Assembly (NCBI GenBank): GCA_965204375.1
Contig: OZ241986.1
Span: forward strand, 864,001-928,000
DNA length: 64,000 nt
DNA from: Candidatus Latescibacterota bacterium
GTDB taxonomy: Bacteria > Latescibacterota > UBA2968
Reading direction: 5' to 3'
The first letter of the stretch is position 1. Every line of letters begins with the position of its first letter. A program made the position numbers and the translations under genes. Positions 2,801 through 64,000 of the stretch are shown piece after piece. The notes beneath the pieces are model-generated. The model was not told the origin of the DNA. It did no database searches and saw nothing but the letters and a program-made list of their open reading frames with translations.

Positions 2801-2844
2801 ATGGGAAAGCTGTTCAGGGACACGACACTGGAGGAGCACAGGTT

Positions 2845-3630
2845 ATGGGACAAGCATTGACGGAGCGTGAGATCGAATCCATCGTCCGGGAGGTCACAGA
2901 CGAAGAAGTGGCTTTTTACCACGAATACGGATGGGTCATGATGAAGCAACTCGTGGACTCGGAGTTCGCAACGGAACTCCTGCGCGTTGGTCAGGAGTGG
3001 TTGAAACGCAATAGCGCCCCCAGACGGGCCGTCGGCCTGGCGCGGCGAGAAGAGACCGAGCCGTTCCGCTCGTTCATGTTCAGCGAGCGCATGTCAAAGA
3101 ACGCAACGCGACTCGTGAACAGGAAGCGGCTCAAGGGCGTAGATATCCCACTTCGCTATCGGATCGACATCCTCCAACACAAGCCCCCGGGGGCAGCCGG
3201 AGCCACTTATCATCAGGACTCGTCAGAGCACGGATCTGATCGCGTGGGCGAGCTTCAGTTCTGGCTTGCACTGGTGGAAGTGCCACCAGAGATGAGTGCC
3301 ATGCGATTTGTCAGTCGCTCACATCGCGAAGGACCGCTTGGCTCGGTATTCAAGGATGACCGGGGCAACCTGCTCGAGCAGTACCCAAATCTGACGTCTG
3401 TGCTGGAGCTTTCTCCGCCGCTCCATTACCAGCCGGGTGACTGCACTGTGCATCACGGATACACAGTCCATGGCGGTCCACCCAACAGCACCGAGAAGTC
3501 GCGCTGGTCATACCTCTTCTCATACTCCCCTTCTGACACGCGATACTGGAACGGCACCGCAGCCAACTGGGGCAGCGAGCGGAAGCGTTTGAGTGACCCG
3601 GTCAATCCAACGGTCCATTTTTCCGAATAA
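2845..3630 (+). CDS. Phytanoyl-CoA dioxygenase (PhyH) family Fe(II)/2OG dioxygenase
   Basis: FYHEYGW, HQD, WLAL..V, MRFV..SH, PGDCTVHHGYTVHG, R; RBS GGAGG. Confidence 0.85.
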   Translation: MGQALTEREIESIVREVTDEEVAFYHEYGWVMMKQLVDSEFATELLRVGQEWLKRNSAPRRAVGLARREETEPFRSFMFSERMSKNATRLVNRKRLKGVDIPLRYRIDILQHKPPGAAGATYHQDSSEHGSDRVGELQFWLALVEVPPEMSAMRFVSRSHREGPLGSVFKDDRGNLLEQYPNLTSVLELSPPLHYQPGDCTVHHGYTVHGGPPNSTEKSRWSYLFSYSPSDTRYWNGTAANWGSERKRLSDPVNPTVHFSE

Positions 3631-5824: not shown

Positions 5825-5853
5825 GGGAACACAACACTGGAGGAGCACAGGTT

Positions 5854-6666
5854 ATGGGACAGGCATTGACGGAGCGTGAAATCAAAGCCGTCGTTCGGGA
5901 GGTCACAGACGAAGAAGTGGCTTTCTACCAGGAATACGGGTGGGTCATGATGAAGCAGCTCGTAGATCCGGAGTTTGTCACGGAGCTTCTAACTGTCGGC
6001 CAGGGGTGGCTGGAACGCTATGGCGCAGACAAGGACCGCAGACGGGCTGTCGGCCTGGTACTGCAGGAAGAGGCTGAGCCATTCCGCTCGTTCATGTTCA
6101 GCGAACGCATGTCAAAAAACGCGATGCGACTCGTGAACAGGAAGCGGCTCAAGGGCGTAGATATCCCACTTCGCTATCGCGCTGACGTCTTCAGAGAAAA
6201 GCCCCCAGGGGCAGCCAGAACCCATTATCATCAGGACTCGTCACAGCACGGCTCTGATCGCGTGGGCGAGCTCCAGTTCTGGCTTGCGCTGGTGGAAGTG
6301 ACACCGGAGATGAGCGCGATGCGATTTGTCAGTCGCTCGCATCGCGAAGGACCGCTTGGCTCGGTAGGCGGCGATGGCAAGGGCGATCTGCTTGAGCAAT
6401 TTCCAAATCTGACGTCTGTGCTGGAGCTTTCTCCGCCGTTCCATTACCAGCCTGGTGATTGCACAGTGCATCACGGGTACACGGTCCATGGCGCTCCGGT
6501 CAATAGCACCGACAAGTCGCGCTGGTCATATCTCTTCTCATACTCGCCTTCCGACACCCGATACTGGAATGGCACAGCAGACAACTGGGGCAACGAGCGA
6601 AAGCATCTGAGTGACGCGGACAATCCAACGGTCTATTTTCCCGAACCAGAAAGAGGTCAGTTATGA
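5854..6666 (+). CDS. PhyH family dioxygenase, close paralog of 2845..3630
   Basis: Highly similar protein and the same 20-nt leader ACACTGGAGGAGCACAGGTT; start moved to ATG 5854. Confidence 0.85.
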   Translation: MGQALTEREIKAVVREVTDEEVAFYQEYGWVMMKQLVDPEFVTELLTVGQGWLERYGADKDRRRAVGLVLQEEAEPFRSFMFSERMSKNAMRLVNRKRLKGVDIPLRYRADVFREKPPGAARTHYHQDSSQHGSDRVGELQFWLALVEVTPEMSAMRFVSRSHREGPLGSVGGDGKGDLLEQFPNLTSVLELSPPFHYQPGDCTVHHGYTVHGAPVNSTDKSRWSYLFSYSPSDTRYWNGTADNWGNERKHLSDADNPTVYFPEPERGQL

Positions 6667-54448: not shown

Positions 54449-55603
54449 TTAGTCAATAATCTTTGTTTCTACAGTCATTTTATTTATTGCATCCCAATTC
54501 CACTCTACGCCCATCCCGGGGCCATCTGGTACATCTACATTACCATCTGCATCCACCGCTTCAAGACCATCCTCATATCCTTCGAGAAAAATGTCAGAAG
54601 TCAGTTGCAAACATTCTATATCGGGATGGACCCAAACCATTTCATAATAATTCGAATTACCTATGGCAGACATCACATGTCTTTGCGCTGGACCAACTCC
54701 GTGAATTTCAATATCTGCGCCTACCGTTTCAGCCGCTGACGCCAGTTTCTTCGTTCCCGTGATTCCATCTCCATTTACATTGCCCCTGATAAAATCTGTC
54801 GATCCGGACAACAGCATATTCATCTTTCCAGAGATTCCCGTAACTTTTTCCCCTTGAAGAAGTGGTGTATCGAGAAACCCTTTTAGTCTCTGGTGTCCAT
54901 TCTCAGTCGTGCCGTCCCCAATAAAATAAGGATCCTCTATCCAATAAAAACCGGCTTCATCGCAGGCTCTTCCAACTTTTAAAGCATCCGCAAATGTTGA
55001 ATAATAGTTAAATGCATCCAGCATTAAATCCATCTTTCCCCCGACTCTATCGGCCACAGCGTGTATCAAGTTTATATGGTCTTGAATGTCAGGTCTGGGG
55101 AATGGATGGATCTTAAACCCTTTATAACCTATTTCTAAGCATTGTTCAGCAAAATCGGCGTACGATTCTGGCGTGGATAATCCCCCTTTTAATCCTTCTT
55201 CTCCTCCGTTCATCGTACTGGCATAAGCGGGCAATTTTTTTCTATATCCTCCCAATAATTCAGATACGGAGAGGTCCGTCATTTTTCCGAGGATATCCCA
55301 TAAGATGATGTCAACAGATCCGTGCATCCCACTCAGATGAAACTTATTGAAATCTTGCCATATTTCTTCTCTTGCGAGCGGATTCCGTCCCAATAAGTCG
55401 TGAGCGATGCGAGAAATATCATGGCTAATCGGATAGGTTCCGACGACGCCACAATCAGTATAAATACTGGTCATGTGTTTACCCATTGAAAGATTCACGC
55501 CTGGGTTATAGGTCATCCACGAAGAATATGTACCAGGTCCACAATCTTTGATTTGCCACTGAATCCTTTTTATTTCAATCTTTTTTATTTTAGGCGATTT
55601 CAT
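54449..55603 (-). CDS. Mandelate racemase/enolase superfamily protein (AT-rich relative of 30805..31965)
   Basis: DIILWD..GK, LPAYAS, FKIH, LMLD, WIEDP, NSNYYE; RBS CAGGAGA. Confidence 0.9.
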   Translation of the reverse strand: MKSPKIKKIEIKRIQWQIKDCGPGTYSSWMTYNPGVNLSMGKHMTSIYTDCGVVGTYPISHDISRIAHDLLGRNPLAREEIWQDFNKFHLSGMHGSVDIILWDILGKMTDLSVSELLGGYRKKLPAYASTMNGGEEGLKGGLSTPESYADFAEQCLEIGYKGFKIHPFPRPDIQDHINLIHAVADRVGGKMDLMLDAFNYYSTFADALKVGRACDEAGFYWIEDPYFIGDGTTENGHQRLKGFLDTPLLQGEKVTGISGKMNMLLSGSTDFIRGNVNGDGITGTKKLASAAETVGADIEIHGVGPAQRHVMSAIGNSNYYEMVWVHPDIECLQLTSDIFLEGYEDGLEAVDADGNVDVPDGPGMGVEWNWDAINKMTVETKIID

Positions 55604-55715
55604 TTCTATCTCCTGGTCTGAAACCCTCGCAGGAAAGACGGTTAGCTTTAGCAGGTTTTTCAATCGACCTGCATGGGTAACGGTTAAACGTTGACAAATA
55701 ACCTTATACTGAGTA

Positions 55716-55740
55716 GGGACTTGACCCGTTTTGGTGAGTA
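55716..55740. mobile_element. Isolated IS3-family terminal inverted repeat relic
   Basis: GGGACTTGACCCGTTTTGGTGAGTA matches the IRL at 16664-16640 at 19 of 25 positions. Confidence 0.6.
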
Positions 55741-55742
55741 TC

Positions 55743-56681
55743 TTATGCTGATTTTCCGGGCGGGCAGATCGCATCTATTTTTTTCAGAGTAGCTTGATCG
55801 AGCTCGCCGTCGGCAGCGGCCGCGTTCTGTTTTGCCTGCTCGGGTGTCTTCATTCCGGGGATGGGACAGGTGACGGCAGGATTGGCGCGGGTGAACTTGA
55901 GCGCGAGATCAACCATGTTCCTGCCTTCGGGTACTAACTCGCGAATCGCTGCGACCTTGTCGAGTCTGACGAGAAAAGCGTCGCGTTGACTTTCTTCTGG
56001 ATTCCAGAGATCTCGAACCGAGTCTTCAAACCTTGTATCTGCCGTGAATTTATCCGCCAAAAGACCCTGAGCGATTGGGCCTCGCAATAACACCCCGATA
56101 TTGTTGTCCAGGCAGTAGGGTAGGATGTCCTTTTCAGGCCCCCGGTTAAGGAGCGAGTAGTTGATCTGACACGATGCACATGCGCCCTCTGAGTTGAGCG
56201 CTTTGAGCGAATCCAGGTCGTTGGTAGATATCGCGTAGTGACGGATCTTTCCCTCTTTCTTGAGCAACTCAAAGGCTTCGACAAAGATCTCGGGATGTTC
56301 CGGGGTTCCGATGTGACACTGATACAGGTCGATATAGTCTGTATCGAGCCGGTAAAGGCTTGCGTGACAGCAATTGATGATGCTGTATATCGTCTTGTAC
56401 CCGAGGGGATCTCCCTGGCGGCGTCCCCAGTTGCCAGCCTTTGTCGCGATATAGACCTCAGATCGCTTGCTTTTCAGGGCTTTGCCTGTGTAGATTTCAC
56501 TCTGACCACAACCGTAGCCATCCGCGGTATCAAACAAATTAACGCCTGCATCGAGAGCCGCGTTGATGGTGTCGAGGGCCTGCTTTTCTTCAACTGGACC
56601 CCACTGTCCGCCGATGCCCCAGCATCCCATGGAGACAGCGCTCACATTCCACCCCGTTTTCCCAAGCGTTCTATACTGCAT
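55743..56681 (-). CDS. Aldo/keto reductase
   Basis: YRTLGKTG, FDTADGYG, IATK, YIDLYQCH, PIPG. Confidence 0.92.
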   Translation of the reverse strand: MQYRTLGKTGWNVSAVSMGCWGIGGQWGPVEEKQALDTINAALDAGVNLFDTADGYGCGQSEIYTGKALKSKRSEVYIATKAGNWGRRQGDPLGYKTIYSIINCCHASLYRLDTDYIDLYQCHIGTPEHPEIFVEAFELLKKEGKIRHYAISTNDLDSLKALNSEGACASCQINYSLLNRGPEKDILPYCLDNNIGVLLRGPIAQGLLADKFTADTRFEDSVRDLWNPEESQRDAFLVRLDKVAAIRELVPEGRNMVDLALKFTRANPAVTCPIPGMKTPEQAKQNAAAADGELDQATLKKIDAICPPGKSA

Positions 56682-56694
56682 GATATTCCTCCGT

Positions 56695-57543
56695 TTATGA
56701 TTTTTCCCGACGAGGCGTCACGCGCCAGTCGGTTCGCAGTTCGGCAACGCGGTCGGCTGGCGGTTGCATGAAGCGCTTGACCCTTTCACTGGCTTTCGCT
56801 TGCAGCTCAGGCCCGGCCAGTTCCCAGGCATTGTAGAACAGCCGGTCGCCGTTTGGTACGATGCGGATGTTCAGGGTGCGCCGGGGCTTGTGAGTCTGAT
56901 TTACGCCTGCGCAATGCAGGCCTCCCGCGTTTACAATTAGTAAATCACCCGGATCGCCGGTCGCCTGGATCTTGTTGCTGTCTGAATCCGGCTCGGGATC
57001 CATCATTTCGGGTTCGTCGGCTTTGAAACAATGTGTGCGCGGAATCAACCGGGTACCGCCGTTTTCCGCTGAATAGCCGTCGAGCATAAAGAAGAACCAC
57101 AGGCCGTTGTGCTTGCCTTCGTCCGTGAGGCCGGGCCTGAAGTCGCGATGGAAGTGCCCCTGCCTCGCGTCCGGGTGATAGCGTACGGTGTTGGCAACGA
57201 GATCTAAAAAATGGTAAGTACCCAGAGCGCGTTCGCAGATCCCGTGAACGGTGTCGTGGTCGAGCAAATCCATGGCCGCTTTACCCCACATGAAACAGGC
57301 ACGGGCATTTGGATTGATTGTGAAGTTGCGTTTCCCTTTTCCGTCGAGAATGCGCACTTCAGGCAACTTCATTCCCCCTTGCCACTCGGCGATATAATCA
57401 TCCGCAGCACGCTGGGCGATATCCCGGAGAGGGGCGAGATACCCGGGTGCGATTTGCTCCCGCAGGATGACATAACCGTTTTCTTGCAGATCGGCTACGT
57501 GTGCGTCCAATTTCTCGTCGCTCATTGGATGGACTGGTTGCAT
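56695..57543 (-). CDS. PhyH family dioxygenase
   Basis: LQENGYV, FHRD, NGGTRLIP.TH, PGD...N..LH.AG.N...RR. Confidence 0.85.
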   Translation of the reverse strand: MQPVHPMSDEKLDAHVADLQENGYVILREQIAPGYLAPLRDIAQRAADDYIAEWQGGMKLPEVRILDGKGKRNFTINPNARACFMWGKAAMDLLDHDTVHGICERALGTYHFLDLVANTVRYHPDARQGHFHRDFRPGLTDEGKHNGLWFFFMLDGYSAENGGTRLIPRTHCFKADEPEMMDPEPDSDSNKIQATGDPGDLLIVNAGGLHCAGVNQTHKPRRTLNIRIVPNGDRLFYNAWELAGPELQAKASERVKRFMQPPADRVAELRTDWRVTPRREKS

Positions 57544-57571
57544 AGGTTGATCTCCTTTCGCGTTGCGGACG

Positions 57572-57594
57572 AATTGAAGTTACGTTCAAGATGT
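57572..57594. repeat. Left part of split copy of the ~126-bp duplicated segment
   Basis: AATTGAAGTTACGTTCAAGATGT identical to 63712-63734. Confidence 0.9.
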
Positions 57595-59066
57595 CAACGA
57601 GGGTCGCCAGCTTCAATTGTTCGTTCCAACAGCCTGCTGCGCATGGCTTCTTCCCGATCTCGATAATCCGGGTTTCCTGCCAGATTCACCAGTTCGCCCG
57701 GGTCGTTCTGCAAGTCGTAAAGTTCAGAACGATCGTTCACATAATGTGCGTATTTCCAATTCTGGTTTCGAACCATGCGACCCCGAGAAAGGAAGAACGT
57801 TCCCGACTCAACCAGCGGCAATTCAGGTACGGGTTCAGTCCGACTCGTGCCGGCTTTCAGCGCGTCCAGTTCTGCTTCTGGTCCTCCCTCTGGCAATGGC
57901 TGACGGCTGCCAACTTCCGCATAGGTACAGTCTCTTTCTGGAGCCATACCCGACATCATTTCGGTCACACTTCTACCCTGAACACCCGGCGGAATCGAGA
58001 TTCCGCTACTCTGGAGTAATGTAGGCATCAAGTCGATTTGCTCAATTTGTAGTGCGTTGGTTGCACCATCCCGTGCATGTTCCAAACCCCTTACGATCAA
58101 CGGGACCTGGACAATGCAGTCGTAGAATGCAGCTGTTTTCCGAATGAGTCCGTGTTCGCCCAGGTACTCACCGTGGTCACCTGTGGCAACAATGATGGTG
58201 TCGTCCCAACGACCAAGCGCTTTTAGTCCATCAAAGAATTTGCCCAAGCATTCATCCAGGTGCCTGAGCATGCCGTAGTAATACGCCATTGTCTGCCGCA
58301 GCTGCTCGTCATCCATGAGATGTAGCCATCCGCCGTGATAATAGACTTGCTGAACGAATGGTTTTGAGTCCAATTCACCCTCAGGTCTATGTGGGAGAGG
58401 CATGTCCTCTGGTCTGTACATCGTGGCAAAAGGTTCGGGAGCCCGATAGGGCGGATGAACATCGGAAAAGCTCAACCACACAAACGAAGGCTCGTCACCC
58501 TTCCGTTCAAGATAATCGAGGGCATGATTCACGTTGGCTCTTGCTGGAGATTCAGCAGGATCAAAAGGATAGGTTCCGCCATACCAGATTGGGTTTGGGT
58601 GATCTCCCCAACGGAAACGTCTTGTTTGTGATTCGAACACGGATGGGTCGATGGGTATTGCAGGCCCAGGAAATGGCTTCCCATAGGCTTCTCTCTGCTT
58701 TTGCCGAAGTGGTGACTCTTCAATACACACTTCAAATCCTGCAGTTTCGGCATCTGGAAAGCAGTGGTTTTTCCCAAATAGGCCACAGCCGACGCCAGCA
58801 TCTTTCAATAGCCCTGGAAGATGAAACCCTTCCTTTTCTTGCATCAACAGCGTGTTGTCTCTGGAACCTGTAACGCTGGGATAACGACCCGTGAAAAATG
58901 CGACCCGTGATGCGACGCAGAGTGGAGAAGGTACGGTGCAGTTTTCAAACCTGATGGCTTCGCTGGCAAAGCGATCTAGATGAGGTGTCGCTTTGACGGG
59001 ATTGCCATAGCATCCCAATGCGCGAGCGGCAAGATGCTCAATGGTGATTACGACAATGCTTTTCAT
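57594..59066 (-). CDS. Sulfatase (CxAxR variant)
   Basis: CVASRVAFFTG, GKNH, GDHG, ELYDL.NDP.E. Confidence 0.88.
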   Translation of the reverse strand: MKSIVVITIEHLAARALGCYGNPVKATPHLDRFASEAIRFENCTVPSPLCVASRVAFFTGRYPSVTGSRDNTLLMQEKEGFHLPGLLKDAGVGCGLFGKNHCFPDAETAGFEVCIEESPLRQKQREAYGKPFPGPAIPIDPSVFESQTRRFRWGDHPNPIWYGGTYPFDPAESPARANVNHALDYLERKGDEPSFVWLSFSDVHPPYRAPEPFATMYRPEDMPLPHRPEGELDSKPFVQQVYYHGGWLHLMDDEQLRQTMAYYYGMLRHLDECLGKFFDGLKALGRWDDTIIVATGDHGEYLGEHGLIRKTAAFYDCIVQVPLIVRGLEHARDGATNALQIEQIDLMPTLLQSSGISIPPGVQGRSVTEMMSGMAPERDCTYAEVGSRQPLPEGGPEAELDALKAGTSRTEPVPELPLVESGTFFLSRGRMVRNQNWKYAHYVNDRSELYDLQNDPGELVNLAGNPDYRDREEAMRSRLLERTIEAGDPR

Positions 59067-59085
59067 CTTTTATCCAGTCTCTGTG

Positions 59086-59193
59086 GATGTGTAAAAGGGC
59101 TGATCACGATATTCGGGTAGGAACCGCTGTTGTTATCACCCATCATCACGATCCTTTCGCCCGTTGAAACCAGTCAATGAGTTGGCTTTTAAG
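59086..59193. repeat. Right part of split copy of the duplicated segment
   Basis: 108 bp matching 63730-63837 with one mismatch (TGATCAC vs TGATCGC). Confidence 0.95.
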
Positions 59194-59231
59194 TCTGTAA
59201 CAATGATGAGAAAATTTGGTTTTGTGGCCAT
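59136..59231 (-). pseudogene. Hollowed-out sulfatase: 5' stub fused to a 3' end
   Basis: MATKPNFLIIVTD joined out of frame to DNA encoding LKSQLIDWFQRAKGS* of the sulfatase ending at 63790. Confidence 0.8.
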
Positions 59232-59246
59232 AATGATCTACCTGGA

Positions 59247-60089
59247 TCATTCCTTGAGCGCGGCAGCATCCTCAGCGATCCACTCTTCCCATCTCTCTTC
59301 GTCGGGTTGCATAAATCCACTGTTGGCTCGCCGAAATACATTTGCATCTTCGCCCAAGAGGCGCAGTAGTCGACGATTGCCAGTCGCTCGTGCTCGCGTT
59401 TTGACTGCTTGAGAAATTGGGCCTGAATAATTGGCTCTGTGTTTAAGCCAGGAATGATTCATCGTTAAAAAGAAAAGGTATCGGTATTCCTTTGAGTAAT
59501 TGGCTGTTCCCGAGTGTACGATAGCATTGTGAAATACGGCGATATCTCCAGATTTGGGATAAAGGATGACTTCGTCGGGGTGGGGTTGCTTTCTTTCTTC
59601 GGCCGTTAAAGACATGGCTTTCATGTGAGAACCTGGAATAATACGTAGGGGGCCAATTTCATCATCGAGATTCTGCAAATAGCTCAGGGCATTGAAGAGT
59701 AAGGGCCTTTGGTAGATGCCTTCTTGAGGAAATTCGGCAAACATGTCCCGGTGAAAACCCAGTACCGGGTTTGTGTTTGGGTCCTGTGGTGCCGTGCGCC
59801 GGTATGTGATGGATTCGAGTTGGACATGCGGGCCGACGATCATTTCACAAAAGTCCAATAGGCGATCATTTTGTAAGGCCGAAAGTACGAGATCGGGTTT
59901 GTGTTCGAGCACATCCACAAAAACCTGGGGACGACTGCCATCGGGATTAGGCAGGCGATCACCGATTTCTTCAAATGAATCCCGCATAGCTTTGACCCAG
60001 ACATCGTCCAGCATCTTTGGGAAAAGTGTAAATCCAACTGTTTTGAATTCTTCAAGGTGTTCCTGGAGAGATTTGGTACCTTCTCGCAT
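59247..60089 (-). CDS. PhyH family dioxygenase
   Basis: FKTVGF, FHRD, GPLRIIPGSH, GD...F...VH.G..N...R. Confidence 0.88.
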   Translation of the reverse strand: MREGTKSLQEHLEEFKTVGFTLFPKMLDDVWVKAMRDSFEEIGDRLPNPDGSRPQVFVDVLEHKPDLVLSALQNDRLLDFCEMIVGPHVQLESITYRRTAPQDPNTNPVLGFHRDMFAEFPQEGIYQRPLLFNALSYLQNLDDEIGPLRIIPGSHMKAMSLTAEERKQPHPDEVILYPKSGDIAVFHNAIVHSGTANYSKEYRYLFFLTMNHSWLKHRANYSGPISQAVKTRARATGNRRLLRLLGEDANVFRRANSGFMQPDEERWEEWIAEDAAALKE

Positions 60090-60120
60090 TTTCAGCCCCC
60101 TCGTGTTTCAGTAATAATTA

Positions 60121-61077
60121 CTACTTAGATTTGGGTCCCTTGTAAGGTTGGCCGATAGGGAATCCGTGCGGTTCAAGGTGCGGACGGAACGGTACCATAT
60201 CGGCGATTTCCTTAAGCCCGGAGAGTATCTCTGGAGGAAGAGGTCCTTTTTCAGCAGCTGCCACATTTTGTTCGACTTCCTCTATAGATTCTGTCCCCAT
60301 GAGAACGGTGGAGACGTTGGGATTGGAAATTACCCATCGCAGAGCGACTTCTGCAAGTGGTAATCCGATTTCATCCACAAAAGCGTAGAGTTTTTTGAAC
60401 TGCTCCAGACGTGGCGGACTCAGCCATCGTGCGCCATTTTCCAGTTCCGGGATGTCGCGACGGGCCAGAAGACCCTTGAAAAAGGCTGCACCTATGACAA
60501 TTCCCATATTCTGTTTCTTAGCTTCAGGCAATCCAGAAATAGCGAATTCCTGCCGGACCAGATTGTAATTACCCGCTGCCAGAACCACATCGTAGTTACC
60601 TGTGGCCATGATGTGTGGAAGTTCATAGGAACTGGTGCCAGCCAGCCCTGTGAATTTGATTATTTTTTCCTCTTTAAGTTTCTCCAGGACTTCACACACA
60701 GGTCCATGGAAATTGTCATAGTCAGTCCACCAATCGAATATTGAGGGATGGTCAGGTTCATGGATTTGCAGAATATCAATACTGTCGCGCTTAAGCAGTC
60801 GGAGGCTCTCATCAACTGACCGACGTAGCATATCTTTATCCTGTGCGTCAAATGGTTTGGGCCTTCCTCCGAGCTTAGTGGCTATGTAATGCGATTGACT
60901 CGCTCCCTCCAGGCCGATCCCTATATTTTTCTCACTATTTCCATAGCCGGGAGCCGTGTCTATATAGTTTACGCCCAGTCCCAGCGCGCGCCGCACAGTC
61001 TCTGGCTTTGCTCCAACTCCTCCCATACCGAGAACAGTGACTTCAAATCCCGTGCGTCCAAGAATTCGTTTCTCCAC
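60121..61077 (-). CDS. Aldo/keto reductase
   Basis: GTG start with AGGAGG; KRILGRTG, IDTAPGYG, IATK, IDILQIH. Confidence 0.92.
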   Translation of the reverse strand: MEKRILGRTGFEVTVLGMGGVGAKPETVRRALGLGVNYIDTAPGYGNSEKNIGIGLEGASQSHYIATKLGGRPKPFDAQDKDMLRRSVDESLRLLKRDSIDILQIHEPDHPSIFDWWTDYDNFHGPVCEVLEKLKEEKIIKFTGLAGTSSYELPHIMATGNYDVVLAAGNYNLVRQEFAISGLPEAKKQNMGIVIGAAFFKGLLARRDIPELENGARWLSPPRLEQFKKLYAFVDEIGLPLAEVALRWVISNPNVSTVLMGTESIEEVEQNVAAAEKGPLPPEILSGLKEIADMVPFRPHLEPHGFPIGQPYKGPKSK

Positions 61078-61100
61078 ATAGCCCTCCTATTTGGCAGAAG

Positions 61101-62447
61101 TCAGGATTGGAAAATCGTCCCGGGCCACGGATAAGCGTTGGATCCAGCCTCATCATCGATGGGGCCTTCCGGCAGTGTGGCTTGCCAATCCATGACCTGC
61201 TCTGACATCTGCTTGACCAGGGTCTCTTCAAATTTGGCGTGATTGACGAGTTCCATCGGATCTGCGGGAATGTTGTACAACTCGACACGACTTCTGTCCG
61301 GGTTGAGAAGCAGCTTCCAGTCACCCTCGCGGATTGAAAGGATCGGGCTTTTGTGAAGGCAATGGCCGTGAACCCGAAATCGCCACTCCCACATCAACGG
61401 CGTCGTGCGATCTACCGAGTTACCTCGAAAGGCGGCTGTCATATCCTCGCCCTGCAGACCAATGTTGTCGGGAATGTCTATGCCAGCGATAGAACAAAAA
61501 GTAGGCAATAGGTCTATGGCACATAAGGGCGTCGTGTTGTCAACTTTGCCTTTTGGTCCGCCACTGCTTGGCCACCGAAGAATGAAAGGGGTTCGCACAC
61601 CGCCTTCGTAGAGGCTTCTTTTTCGACCTCGAAAGGGACCAGAAGAACCGACGCCACTGTGTGACGCATTTCGAACGTGGATATCCTCGGGGCCGTTGTC
61701 AGCAGAGAAGATGACAATCGTGTTGTCGGAAAGGCCCAGTTGATCCAGCCGATCCATGAGCCGTCCAATGTGGTAATCCGCGTTGGTAACGACAGAATAG
61801 TAGATGCGTAGTGCACCTTTGTGTTTGTCTTCCAGGCCTTGAGCGGTAAAATTCATATAGGGTTCCATCTGTTCCTCTGTAGGATCCAGAGTGGCGTGAG
61901 TGTCAAGCAACCACGCTTGCACAAAGAAAGGCTCATCCCGATGTCTTTCGATGAAGGATATGGTTTCATCTACAATTACCTCTGTAGATTGAGATCTGCC
62001 TTCGGGAATCTCAATGGCGGGTCCGACCGCATTGAATGTTTTGGATTCGTCAATCCCATAAGCCGTGGTATTGGGTGCTTCTTCGCCACTTCCCAGGTGC
62101 CACTTGCCAAAGTGGCCAACAGCATATCCACTTTGTTGCAGGAGACCTGTGATGGTCGTTGCATCGGGATCCAACCAGTCTGGCATGCCGCGTTGGGCGT
62201 TCTGCTCGTGACGGGCAAAATGGCCATGTATGCCCCAGTGGGCAGGAAATCGACCCGTCATGACCGCTGCCCGGCTGGGTGAGCACACACCCGAGCAAAC
62301 ATAGAATTGTGAGAAGAGAATGCCCTGCGAAGCGAGCCGATCCAGATTTGGCGTTTTTACAAACTGGTGGCCGTAGCAACTCAAGTCACCCCACCCCCAA
62401 TCGTCGGCGAAGACAAATACGATATTGGGTCTTTTCGATTCAGCCAT
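61101..62447 (-). CDS. Sulfatase (arylsulfatase/GalNAc-6-sulfatase-like)
   Basis: RPNIVFVFADD, CSPSRAAVMTG, GKWHLG, ADNG, YEGG. Confidence 0.92.
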   Translation of the reverse strand: MAESKRPNIVFVFADDWGWGDLSCYGHQFVKTPNLDRLASQGILFSQFYVCSGVCSPSRAAVMTGRFPAHWGIHGHFARHEQNAQRGMPDWLDPDATTITGLLQQSGYAVGHFGKWHLGSGEEAPNTTAYGIDESKTFNAVGPAIEIPEGRSQSTEVIVDETISFIERHRDEPFFVQAWLLDTHATLDPTEEQMEPYMNFTAQGLEDKHKGALRIYYSVVTNADYHIGRLMDRLDQLGLSDNTIVIFSADNGPEDIHVRNASHSGVGSSGPFRGRKRSLYEGGVRTPFILRWPSSGGPKGKVDNTTPLCAIDLLPTFCSIAGIDIPDNIGLQGEDMTAAFRGNSVDRTTPLMWEWRFRVHGHCLHKSPILSIREGDWKLLLNPDRSRVELYNIPADPMELVNHAKFEETLVKQMSEQVMDWQATLPEGPIDDEAGSNAYPWPGTIFQS

Positions 62448-62515
62448 TGCGGTTCTCCTTCAGGTTGTAGGAACTGGGCAGAGTCTTAATGCAGAGTAAT
62501 ATCTTAAATATCGAT

Positions 62516-63664
62516 TCACGAATTCAGTGCATTGCAGATGACGGCAGGTGGCGCAACTGTCACCGTTTCGCTCAAGGCGAACGGTGCACCCACTGGTGCC
62601 GCCACCCAGGACTGATCCGGTTGGACATCGTCCAGTGCCGACCAGAAGCCGCGCTCGAGGCGGGGCGACGACGATGCTTTGATCTCCACCGCGACGAGCT
62701 TATTTCTCCGTCGGATCAGGAGGTCGATCTCAGCGCCGGCCGCGGTCCGATAGAAGCTCAGTTCGGCGTCGGGCACCGCCGCGGCGATTTGCTCGATGAC
62801 GTATCCTTCCCAGGAGTTGCCGCGAACCGGATGGCCATCCAGGTCGTCGAGAGAATCCAAACGCAGCAGCCGGTGAAGGATGCCGGTATCTCTGAGATAA
62901 ACACGGGGACTCTTCACCAGGCGCTTCTTGACGTTGGCCGCGCAGGGTGAAAGCCGCCTTACCATGTAGGCCTGCTCAAGGATGCGGAGATAGTGTCCAA
63001 CCGTCTTGCCCGTTACGCCCAGGGAAGAAGCCACTTTGGCGTGGTTCCACAGATCCCCATGCAGGTGAGCGCACATCTCCCAGAATTGCCGCAGCGTTAT
63101 CGCGGGTACGCGGATACCCAGTTGAGGAATGTCGCGTTCGAGAAACGTCTGGATGAAACTGTCCAGCCACGCCCGGCTCATTTCGTCTGATGGGGCCAGA
63201 TAGCTTCGCGGGAATCCGCCTCGCAGCCAGAGCCTTGACTGATTCTCCGCCCCGATCTCTTCTTCGACAAAGGGCGTCAGTTCGATGAAACCGATGCGAC
63301 CGGCGAGCGTCTCAGACGACTGTTGGAGCAGAGCTGGAGAAGCCGATCCCAGCACCACGAACTGCCCCGGAGAACCGGTCTCATCGCAAAGCCCGCGAAG
63401 CACGCGAAACAATTCGGGGACGCGCTGGATCTCGTCGAGGCAGACGATGTGATCCCGATGGCGGCGGAGGTAATCTTCTGGCTCGGCCAGACGTGCGGCG
63501 TCGGAAGGAAGCTCGAGGTCGAGATAGTGTGACGCTGGCTGTTCAGCAAGCCACGTCTTGGCCAGGGTGGTCTTTCCACACTGGCGAGGCCCCAGAATTG
63601 CCGTGACAGGGAAGTACCTCGCGTATTCAGAGACCTTTGTCTGAATTTTTCTGTTGATGTTCAT
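62516..63664 (-). CDS. AAA_14 + DUF4143 ATP-binding protein
   Basis: GPRQCGKTT, LDEIQ, LGS, GGFP, KSPR.Y..D.G, EIDL, EIK; likely start MNINR at 63664. Confidence 0.9.
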   Translation of the reverse strand: MNINRKIQTKVSEYARYFPVTAILGPRQCGKTTLAKTWLAEQPASHYLDLELPSDAARLAEPEDYLRRHRDHIVCLDEIQRVPELFRVLRGLCDETGSPGQFVVLGSASPALLQQSSETLAGRIGFIELTPFVEEEIGAENQSRLWLRGGFPRSYLAPSDEMSRAWLDSFIQTFLERDIPQLGIRVPAITLRQFWEMCAHLHGDLWNHAKVASSLGVTGKTVGHYLRILEQAYMVRRLSPCAANVKKRLVKSPRVYLRDTGILHRLLRLDSLDDLDGHPVRGNSWEGYVIEQIAAAVPDAELSFYRTAAGAEIDLLIRRRNKLVAVEIKASSSPRLERGFWSALDDVQPDQSWVAAPVGAPFALSETVTVAPPAVICNALNS

Positions 63665-63670
63665 TCTTGT

Positions 63671-63699
63671 AATATGGGAGTCTATCTCCCAATTTGCAA
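63671..63699 (-). promoter_or_regulatory. Sigma70-like promoter, probably giving a leaderless mRNA
   Basis: TTGCAA-17 bp-CATATT ending 7 nt before the ATG at 63664; spacer holds palindrome GGGAG-tctat-CTCCC; no RBS. Confidence 0.45.
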
Positions 63700-63711
63700 G
63701 GATAAAACACA

Positions 63712-63837
63712 AATTGAAGTTACGTTCAAGATGTGTAAAAGGGCTGATCGCGATATTCGGGTAGGAACCGCTGTTGTTATCACCCATCATCACGATCCTT
63801 TCGCCCGTTGAAACCAGTCAATGAGTTGGCTTTTAAG
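63712..63837. repeat. Intact copy of the ~126-bp duplicated segment
   Basis: Contiguous version of 57572-57594 plus 59086-59193. Confidence 0.95.
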
Positions 63838-64000
63838 ATCGTTATAAATCTCGGGATATTGACTGGCTAAATCATTGGCTTCGCCAATATCCTGATCGAG
63901 CTTGTACAATTCAAATTGCAATTCTTCAATAGCCGGAATAGCCTCGGCAAATTGCCCGCGATGATTAGGGCCTGTACCAACCAGTTTCCAATCGTCTTTT
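63790..64000 (-). CDS. Sulfatase, 3' end only (runs off window)
   Basis: KDDWKLV...FELYKLDQDIGEANDLASQYPE...LKSQLIDWFQRAKGS*, typical sulfatase C-terminus; not in the ORF track. Confidence 0.85.
   Translation of the reverse strand, partial: KDDWKLVGTGPNHRGQFAEAIPAIEELQFELYKLDQDIGEANDLASQYPEIYNDLKSQLIDWFQRAKGS

What the first reader, a model, noticed from the sequence alone, without database searches (positions are those of the whole stretch)
57572..59193. Filled site and empty site in the same window: a sulfatase inserted with a 5-bp GATGT duplication
63712-63837 reads ...TTACGTTCAA-GATGT-GTAAAAGGGC... without interruption. The second copy is split as ...TTACGTTCAA-GATGT [sulfatase 57594..59066 plus a 19-nt leader] GATGT-GTAAAAGGGC... 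The insert is only leader plus ORF, has no terminal inverted repeats and no mobility gene, and its TGA overlaps the repeat. This is the most direct evidence that a bare metabolic gene is the mobile unit (gained in one copy, or precisely lost from the other).
Basis: seen in the sequence. Interest (0 to 1): 0.88.

Follow-up and report, generated by a model that had tools for sequence, protein, structure and literature searches.

The report
Deletion scar in shuffled sulfatase array
The matching "filled" and "empty" sites are real, but related genomes show that the empty site is most likely a scar where a sulfatase gene was deleted from one of two copies of a gene pair, in a fast-rearranging gene cluster of a sponge-associated bacterium, rather than evidence that a bare gene jumps.

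Summary
A 23-nt left part (57572-57594) and a 108-nt right part (59086-59193) flank a sulfatase gene (S3, 57594..59066, minus strand) plus its 19-nt leader. The same two parts lie uninterrupted at 63712-63837, sharing one GATGT.

The insertion reading is not supported. The right part is the 3' end and trailer of another sulfatase, X. In 10 of 21 genomes of this Latescibacterota genus that trailer runs straight into the S3 leader. In 9 of 21 the left part directly follows the S3 stop codon. The empty junction occurs in 2 of 21. S3 has been removed by at least seven different junctions in nine genomes. Copy A in the window also holds an X gene whose body is deleted.

The insert has no inverted ends, no mobility gene and only one copy in the genome, and its boundaries vary between genomes.

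Best reading: two paralogous X-S3 segments with reciprocal loss. S3 was lost between ACATC(T) direct repeats. The surrounding co-directional sulfatase, PhyH and aldo-keto-reductase array differs in gene order in all 16 genomes compared.

The parts
57572..57594 (-). 'l', copy A: 23-nt trailer directly after the S3 stop codon. Its last 5 nt on the + strand (57590-57594, GATGT; ACATC on the coding strand) are the downstream direct repeat.
   Evidence: It follows the S3 stop in 9 of 21 genus genomes.
57594..59066 (-). S3: 490-aa sulfatase (PF00884) with a CVASR active-site motif and no obvious signal peptide. Single copy in this genome.
59067..59085 (-). 19-nt S3 leader (CACAGAGACTGGATAAAAG on the coding strand).
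   Evidence: The same leader, with TTACACATC in front of it, also occurs in a context without the X trailer (G014, G002).
59086..59193 (-). 'r', copy A: 108 nt made of the upstream ACATC repeat (59086-59090), the 55-nt trailer of sulfatase X, and the last 15 codons plus stop of X (59146-59193).
59194..59245 (-). Stub of an X-like gene. It holds a 14-nt leader and the first 38 nt of coding sequence (ATG at 59231), joined out of frame to the X 3' end at 59193/59194. This is a deletion of about 1,222 bp of the X body.
   Evidence: 49 of 53 bases match the start of X at 65059-65111. The intact parent order P2-X-r-S3-l-P1 is in G013. G002 has the same scar.
59247..60089 (-). PhyH2: PhyH-family dioxygenase upstream of the X stub.
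56695..57543 (-). PhyH1: PhyH-family dioxygenase downstream of S3 and l.
63712..63837 (-). Copy B ('empty site'): r (63730-63837) and l (63712-63734) share one ACATC. This is the junction left after S3 was lost.
   Evidence: G004 and G015 have the same flanks with S3 present.
63790..64000 (-). 3' part of sulfatase X. The whole gene is 63790..65097 (435 aa) and runs beyond the window.
62516..63664 (-). AAA_14/DUF4143 ATPase gene downstream of copy B. It is the only non-metabolic gene in the array.

Best explanation
The window holds two paralogous copies of a segment X - r - S3 - l. X and S3 are tandem sulfatase genes on the minus strand. They sit in a co-directional array of sulfatase, PhyH-dioxygenase, aldo-keto-reductase and enolase-type genes in a sponge-associated Candidatus Latescibacterota genome. 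Each copy has lost one gene. Copy A (57572-59245) kept S3 and lost about 1,222 bp of the X body, leaving a 38-nt 5' stub and a 48-nt 3' stub. Copy B (63712-65111) kept X and lost the 1,496 bp holding the S3 leader and ORF. That deletion ran between two ACATC(T) direct repeats, one 24 nt upstream of the S3 start codon and one overlapping its stop codon. Shown: the sequences, the scars, the parental alleles in relatives, the variety of other S3 deletions, and the absence of transposon or integron features. Inferred: the direction of the event (loss, not gain); the mechanism (slipped-strand or other recA-independent illegitimate recombination at a 5-6 nt microhomology); and the origin of the two copies, either by segmental duplication or by unequal recombination between arrays of different gene order. 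Later loss then left one working copy of each gene.
For: (1) r is the 3' end and trailer of X. In 10 of 21 genus genomes r runs directly into the S3 leader. In 9 of 21 the S3 stop runs directly into l. The empty junction r|l is in 2 of 21, G000 and G014. (2) Parental alleles with identical flanks exist. G004 and G015 have X-r-S3-l-AAA where G000 copy B has X-r-l-AAA. G013 has P2-X-r-S3-l-P1 where G014 has P2-X-r-l-P1 and where G000 copy A and G002 have P2-(X stub)-r-S3-l-P1. (3) S3 was removed by at least seven different junctions in nine genomes: ACATC to ACATC (G000, G014); leader +9 to l (G002); leader +12 to the P1 ribosome-binding site (G003); X nt ~196 to 7 nt past l (G012); S3 nt 12 onward (G007, G008, G016); S3 nt 12 to the S2 3' end, and S3 nt 135 to the AAA leader (both G018). 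(4) l stays attached to S3 where r is absent (G003 contig 5, G006, G012, G020). r plus leader stays where the S3 body is absent (G003 contig 33, G007, G008, G016, G018). (5) S3's 5' boundary varies between genomes (-3, -16 or -28 nt) and so does its 3' boundary (0, +4, +8 or +23 nt). (6) The insert has no inverted ends: the best match is 6 nt, and 270 of 500 shuffles reach it. Its GC content is 0.516 against 0.524 for the window. S3 is single-copy. No recombinase lies in the array, and the only two PF00589 genes are at 3.37 and 4.26 Mb. (7) ACATC(T) is among the two or three longest repeats shared by the two spacers around S3. (8) Both empty sites lie in genomes of one S3 clade. The other three clades carry filled sites or S3 stubs. 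Within that clade G013 shows two S3 copies, G000 and G002 kept the second, and G014 and G012 kept the first.
Against: (1) The identical r|l junction occurs with two different downstream genes: AAA in G000 and PhyH1 in G014. This needs either two independent deletions at the same 5-6 nt repeat or a transfer of the scar between paralogous loci. Neither is shown. (2) The other deletion junctions I could reconstruct have only 0-2 nt of microhomology or 3-6 nt of filler, so a 5-6 nt repeat is not the rule in this array. (3) The direction of the event rests on parsimony across genomes that clearly recombine, so an old empty allele kept as a polymorphism cannot be excluded. (4) The genomes are metagenome-assembled. 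The second S3 copy of G013 is seen only as 39 nt at a contig end. (5) How the two copies arose was not reconstructed.
Confidence: 0.75

Rival explanations
1. S3 plus its leader was inserted into an ancestral X-r|l site, and the GATGT/ACATC repeat is a target-site duplication or an integration microhomology. Possible routes are transposition in trans, a cassette-like event, or homology-facilitated illegitimate recombination anchored in X. The empty sites would then be the ancestral state.
For: The breakpoint is clean, with a 5-nt direct repeat and only leader plus ORF between the copies. The same empty junction occurs in two genomes with different downstream genes. The 5-6 nt repeat is unusual among the array's junctions. 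Array genes are 96-99% identical between species while two control regions are mostly 89-94%, which suggests recent exchange.
Against: The insert has no inverted ends, no mobility gene and only one copy. S3's boundaries differ between contexts, and the G014 copy of S3 has no flanking repeat. The block TTAC+ACATC+leader is shared by two unrelated upstream contexts, so ACATC belongs to the S3 leader. l follows S3 where r is absent. Filled sites or stubs occur in all four S3 clades, while empty sites occur in one. Six other S3 deletion junctions exist.
Confidence: 0.12
2. An unrecognised site-specific or otherwise dedicated system shuffles single genes of this array, by excision and re-integration at short intergenic sites. 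The S3 filled and empty pair would be one reversible event of that system.
For: All 16 genomes compared have a different gene order, and the units are single genes. Some breakpoints recur: the end of l has four different right-hand partners, and S3 is cut after nt 12 in two different contexts. This region is far more rearranged than two control regions.
Against: No shared motif was seen at the junctions. Many junctions lie inside genes and leave stubs. No recombinase gene lies in or next to the array. No circle joint appeared in the contigs laid, though contigs cannot show rare forms.
Confidence: 0.06
3. The pair is an assembly artefact: two strain haplotypes of one locus were concatenated in a metagenome-assembled genome.
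For: The genome is a MAG with 5.5% estimated contamination. The two copies resemble alternative alleles seen in other genomes.
Against: The 4.5 kb between the copies holds unique genes in a consistent order. G002 independently has the copy A structure and G014 independently has the r|l junction. Contigs of runs X15 and X17 match both copies without differences up to the 108-nt repeat, but these runs may be the source sample and are therefore not independent.
Confidence: 0.03

Closest known systems
Deletion between short direct repeats (slipped-strand or microhomology-mediated illegitimate recombination; recalled from the classic lacI deletion work of Albertini et al. 1982 and from Bzymek and Lovett 2001, not read here)
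   Same: One copy of a 5-6 nt repeat remains at the junction. The parental allele carries both copies, 1.5 kb apart. No recombinase is needed.
   Different: The same junction is seen in two gene contexts. Most other junctions in this array show 0-2 nt of microhomology.
Tandem-duplication/random-loss model of gene-order change (mitochondrial genomes), and trimming of amplified arrays in the innovation-amplification-divergence model (both recalled)
   Same: A duplicated gene pair shows reciprocal loss, stubs of the lost copies remain as intermediates, and the gene order becomes permuted.
   Different: This is a bacterial chromosomal metabolic array. The duplicates may come from unequal recombination between different species' arrays rather than a simple tandem duplication. 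My search for the phrase together with 'bacteria' listed 10 papers, all on mitochondrial genomes judging by their titles.
Integron gene cassettes
   Same: The array is co-directional, is made of single-gene units with short spacers, and shows presence or absence of single ORFs among relatives.
   Different: No attC-like structured site is present: the spacers are 13-80 nt and the fold of l has z -0.34. No IntI gene is present: the only two PF00589 genes lie more than 2.4 Mb away. Unit boundaries are not constant.
Insertion sequence or transposon with target-site duplication
   Same: A 5-bp direct repeat flanks the segment.
   Different: There are no terminal inverted repeats, no transposase and only one copy, and the boundaries vary.
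Mosaic phage genomes with junctions at gene boundaries (the Hendrix model of illegitimate recombination plus selection; recalled)
   Same: Gene-sized modules are shuffled among relatives, and junctions cluster at gene ends.
   Different: This is a chromosomal catabolic gene array in a symbiont, and no phage genes were seen.

Membership tests
Transposable element insertion with target-site duplication | Short direct repeat of target sequence on both sides | tested here: met
   GATGT stands at 57590-57594 and 59086-59090 and occurs once at 63730-63734. A microhomology deletion predicts the same pattern.
Transposable element insertion with target-site duplication | Terminal inverted repeats or other defined element ends | tested here: not met
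   The best inverted match between the two ends is 6 nt, and 270 of 500 shuffles reach it.
Transposable element insertion with target-site duplication | Transposase or other mobility gene, or further copies mobilised in trans with the same ends | tested here: not met
   The only ORF with a family match is a sulfatase. The insert is single-copy in the genome. S3's boundaries differ among 15 genomes.
Integron gene cassette | attC recombination site at the 3' end of the cassette | tested here: not met
   S3's 3' flank is 23 nt with a 5-bp stem; the fold gives -3.7 kcal/mol and z -0.34. No dedicated attC model was run.
Integron gene cassette | IntI tyrosine recombinase and attI next to the array | tested here: not met
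   PF00589 matches lie only at G000 3.37 Mb and 4.26 Mb, while the window is at 0.86-0.93 Mb. Pfam scans of the array genes and their neighbours show no recombinase.
Deletion between short direct repeats | A parental allele with both repeat copies and the same outer flanks | tested here: met
   G004 and G015 have X-r-S3-l-AAA, and G013 has X-r-S3-l-P1. The repeat is ACATCT (6 nt) in G004 and ACATC (5 nt) in G013.
Deletion between short direct repeats | The empty state is derived rather than ancestral | tested here: met
   Empty junctions occur in 2 of 21 genomes, both in one S3 clade. Filled sites or S3 stubs occur in all four clades. Six other S3 deletion junctions exist. Caveat: this is parsimony on genomes that recombine.
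Formylglycine-type sulfatase (Pfam PF00884), for S3 | Sulfatase domain and a C/S-x-P/A-x-R active-site motif (motif definition recalled) | tested here: met
   PF00884 matches at E 3e-46 over residues 4-355. CVASR is present in the translation. Enzyme activity was not tested.

The most novel reading that the evidence does not exclude
The array is reshuffled gene by gene by a process that is more than random illegitimate recombination. This could be a cassette-like exchange between co-resident symbiont species, working without an integrase and using short intergenic sites. The ACATC junction would then be a reversible precise excision or integration of S3. The evidence that keeps this reading open: some breakpoints recur, the same junction occurs in two contexts, and array genes are 96-99% identical between species against mostly 89-94% in two control regions.
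Probability: 0.07. Interest if true: 0.8.

Novelty: new member of a known kind. Interest (0 to 1): 0.33.

Why it matters
The finding looked like direct evidence for a new kind of mobile unit, a bare metabolic gene with a target-site duplication. With relatives in hand it becomes a clear example of reciprocal gene loss after duplication, with both scars still readable. It lies in a sulfatase-rich array that differs in gene order in every genome of the genus that was compared. This matters for how sponge symbionts tune their repertoire for sulfated polysaccharides. It is also a caution: a clean filled/empty pair with a short direct repeat is not enough to call an insertion.

Tried and rejected
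Excised circle or population polymorphism. I laid the contigs of four runs on 55500-64000. The two source-like runs (X15, X17) showed no joint that skips S3, none that inserts it at copy B, and no back-joint closing S3 on itself. All four runs are Logan contigs, which drop rare forms, so this says nothing either way. The two other metagenomes (X1, X3) showed arrangements already known from relatives: 59106->63751 is X-r-S3, and 63713->57593 is the G014-type S3|AAA junction.

Known RNA families. An Rfam scan of 56500-64000 at E up to 1 gave one chance-level hit (tsr1, 15.6 bits against a gathering score of 235).

Structure at the junction. Folding l and r gave z -0.34 and z -0.90. Only the copy B form of r forms a notable hairpin (z -2.47). 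No role in the deletion could be assigned to it.

Microhomology as a general rule. I expected ribosome-binding-site to ribosome-binding-site microhomology to explain the junctions. Some junctions do lie in AAGGAG-like sites (G010, G003, G015). However, the reconstructed junctions mostly show 0-2 nt of microhomology, so I dropped it as a general rule.

Literature. Three searches found no description of this array or of gene-order shuffling in Latescibacterota. I saw only listings and the starts of abstracts (PMC4454575, PMC7081726 and the others listed). No paper was read in full, and supplements were not consulted.

Tools not used: structure prediction, complex prediction and the large protein searches, because the question was about DNA anatomy.

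Full report
**Observation.** All genes in this part of the window lie on the minus strand. Read in the direction of transcription, the order is as follows:
- sulfatase X (63790..65097, 435 aa, ending outside the window);
- an AAA_14/DUF4143 ATPase (62516..63664);
- sulfatase S2;
- aldo-keto reductase AKR2;
- PhyH-family dioxygenase P2 (59247..60089);
- sulfatase S3 (57594..59066);
- PhyH-family P1 (56695..57543);
- AKR1, an enolase-superfamily gene, and sulfatase S4.

57572-57594 equals 63712-63734 (23 of 23 bases). 59086-59193 matches 63730-63837 (107 of 108). At 63712-63837 the two parts overlap by GATGT. Around S3, GATGT stands on both sides of a 1,496-bp segment made of the ORF and a 19-nt leader. 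The genome (6.34 Mb, one contig) has no further copy of the repeat or of S3.

**What the two halves are.** The 108-nt right part, which I call r, is the last 15 codons plus the stop of X, followed by 55 nt of trailer ending in ACATC on the coding strand. In copy A no X gene stands upstream of r. Instead, the 53 nt at 59193-59245 match the leader and first 38 coding bases of X (49 of 53). They are joined out of frame to the X 3' end. Copy A therefore contains an X gene whose body, about 1,222 bp, has been deleted.

**Relatives.** Record titles name these genomes as Candidatus Latescibacterota MAGs. The runs that hold the sequence are mostly sponge metagenomes. Outside the genus, the best S3 relatives are only 25-32% identical. 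A DNA search of 41 genomes found the region in 16 of 20 other genomes of the genus. I fetched 20-kb loci from 15 of them and compared them by BLAST, by ORF clustering and by reading the junctions.

No two of the 16 genomes have the same gene order. The units that come, go and change place are single genes. The genes are sulfatases, PhyH-type dioxygenases, aldo-keto reductases, an enolase-type gene, a xylose-isomerase-like gene, a beta-helix protein and the AAA_14/DUF4143 gene. No integrase or transposase is among them.

About 140 kb around the window is collinear but patchy in four complete genomes, in blocks of 0.7-10 kb with local permutations. Two arbitrarily chosen control regions are collinear in blocks of 7-18 kb and mostly 89-94% identical. 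By contrast X, S2, S3 and the AAA gene are 96-99% identical between species.

**Direction of the event.** Counts over all 21 genomes of the genus:
- r runs straight into the S3 leader in 10;
- the S3 stop runs straight into the 23-nt left part, l, in 9;
- the empty junction r|l occurs in 2, G000 and G014.

For each empty site a filled allele with the same outer flanks exists. G004 and G015 have X-r-S3-l-AAA where G000 copy B has X-r-l-AAA. G013 has P2-X-r-S3-l-P1 where G014 has P2-X-r-l-P1. G000 copy A and G002 have the G013 arrangement with X deleted.

The two halves are linked to S3 independently of each other. l follows S3 in four genomes where r is not upstream. r plus the leader persists in five genomes where the S3 body is gone. 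The block TTAC-ACATC-leader is also found upstream of S3 in a context with no r (G014, and a scar in G002). ACATC therefore belongs to the S3 leader. S3's boundaries with its neighbours vary: -3, -16 or -28 nt on the 5' side and 0, +4, +8 or +23 nt on the 3' side.

S3 has been removed by at least seven different junctions in nine genomes:
- ACATC to ACATC (G000, G014);
- leader +9 to l (G002);
- leader +12 to the P1 ribosome-binding site (G003);
- X nt ~196 to 7 nt past l (G012);
- S3 nt 12 onward (G007, G008, G016);
- S3 nt 12 to the 3' end of S2 (G018);
- S3 nt 135 to the AAA leader (G018).

In the S3 tree the two genomes with the empty junction lie in one clade, together with G002, G012 and G013. 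The three other clades carry filled sites or stubs. Within that clade G013 shows two S3 copies, the second seen only as 39 nt at a contig end. G000 and G002 kept the copy next to P1. G014 and G012 kept the other one. This is the pattern expected from duplication followed by loss of one or the other copy.

**Mechanism.** The S3 loss retains one copy of a 5-nt repeat (G013-type parent) or a 6-nt repeat (G004-type parent). That repeat is among the two or three longest shared by the 79-nt spacer upstream of S3 and the spacer downstream of it. This fits a recA-independent deletion between short direct repeats.

The insert has none of the features of an element:
- The best inverted match between its ends is 6 nt, and 270 of 500 shuffles reach it.
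- Its GC content equals that of its surroundings.
- It is single-copy.
- The genome's only two PF00589 recombinases lie at 3.37 and 4.26 Mb.
- No Rfam family and no notable structure lie at the junction.

How the two X-S3 segments came to lie 4.6 kb apart was not reconstructed. A segmental duplication is possible. So is unequal recombination between arrays of different order. In favour of the second, G000's X groups apart from the X of G013 and G014.

**Evidence against my reading.** Four points remain open.
- The same junction occurs with two different downstream genes. Either the deletion happened twice, or the scar was copied between paralogous loci. For copying, the available homology arms would be X plus r on one side and l plus a shared 19-nt leader on the other. 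This is inference only.
- The other junctions I could reconstruct have 0-2 nt of microhomology or 3-6 nt of filler, so the S3 junction is the outlier.
- Some breakpoints recur. The end of l has four different partners, and S3 is cut after nt 12 in two contexts.
- The direction of the event rests on parsimony in genomes that exchange DNA.

The contigs laid on the region showed no circle and no alternative allele in the source-like runs, but contigs cannot show rare forms. For these reasons I keep 12% on an insertion and 6% on a dedicated shuffling process.

**Comparison and verdict.** The finding works like a deletion between short direct repeats inside a duplicated segment. The whole array behaves like the duplication/random-loss model known from mitochondrial gene orders. 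A search for that phrase together with 'bacteria' listed only mitochondrial papers, judged by their titles. The finding fails the defining tests for a transposon insertion and for an integron cassette. S3 itself is an ordinary formylglycine-type sulfatase by domain and motif.

The insertion interpretation is not supported, and the 'precisely lost' alternative is.

Noticed in passing
window 46000-66000 and about 140 kb around it (G000 0.85-0.99 Mb); loci L027-L043 and L074-L093: The whole sulfatase-rich region is a rearrangement hot spot. No two of the 16 genomes share a gene order. Blocks are 0.7-10 kb with local permutations. Two control regions of the same genomes are collinear in 7-18 kb blocks.
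   Followed up: partly
window 57594-59066, 61101-62447 and 63790-65097, compared with L094 and L095: Array genes X, S2, S3 and the AAA gene are 96-99% identical between species. Two control regions are mostly 89-94% identical. This suggests recent exchange of array genes between species.
   Followed up: partly
relatives: L028 (G004), L034 (G018), L032 (G015), L036 (G007): The spacers are full of short stubs of deleted genes. Examples: the first 20 nt of PhyH1 between AAA and S2 (G004, G018); the last 23 nt of sulfatase c23 after l (G004, G015); the last 156 nt of S2 after a 12-nt S3 stub (G018); and a c11-like 3' end of about 45 nt ahead of the beta-helix gene (G007, G008, G016).
   Followed up: partly
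window 63745-63797 (minus strand): Copy B of r forms an imperfect hairpin that starts at the stop codon of X (DNA fold -13.9 kcal/mol, z -2.47; 3 of 200 shuffles fold as well). The 60-nt trailer is 99-100% conserved across species. Its role is unknown.
   Followed up: no
window 62516-63664: An AAA_14/DUF4143 ATPase is the only non-metabolic gene in the array. It has a palindromic leader (TGGGAG ATAGA CTCCCA). It is present in some genomes and reduced to a 5' stub in others (G002, G013, G015).
   Followed up: no
L094:1303-1453 (G000 about 3.0013 Mb): A dispersed repeat of about 140 nt occurs in more than ten copies each in G004 and G014. It may be a miniature mobile element.
   Followed up: no
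L095:18136-19315 (G000 about 5.018 Mb): A multicopy element of about 1.2 kb has copies at 76-85% identity in all five genomes searched. Related copies match a 1.2-kb stretch inside the sulfatase region of G008. It looks like an insertion sequence but was not annotated.
   Followed up: no
window 2817-3317 and 5826-6335: Direct repeats of 201 and 300 nt, at 85-88% identity and about 3 kb apart, suggest an older tandem duplication of a gene-sized unit elsewhere in the window.
   Followed up: no
G000:C1:1101149-1106973: In G004, G008 and G010 this 5.8-kb block lies next to the block at window-equivalent 114.7 kb. In G000 it sits about 120 kb away, so it has been relocated.
   Followed up: no
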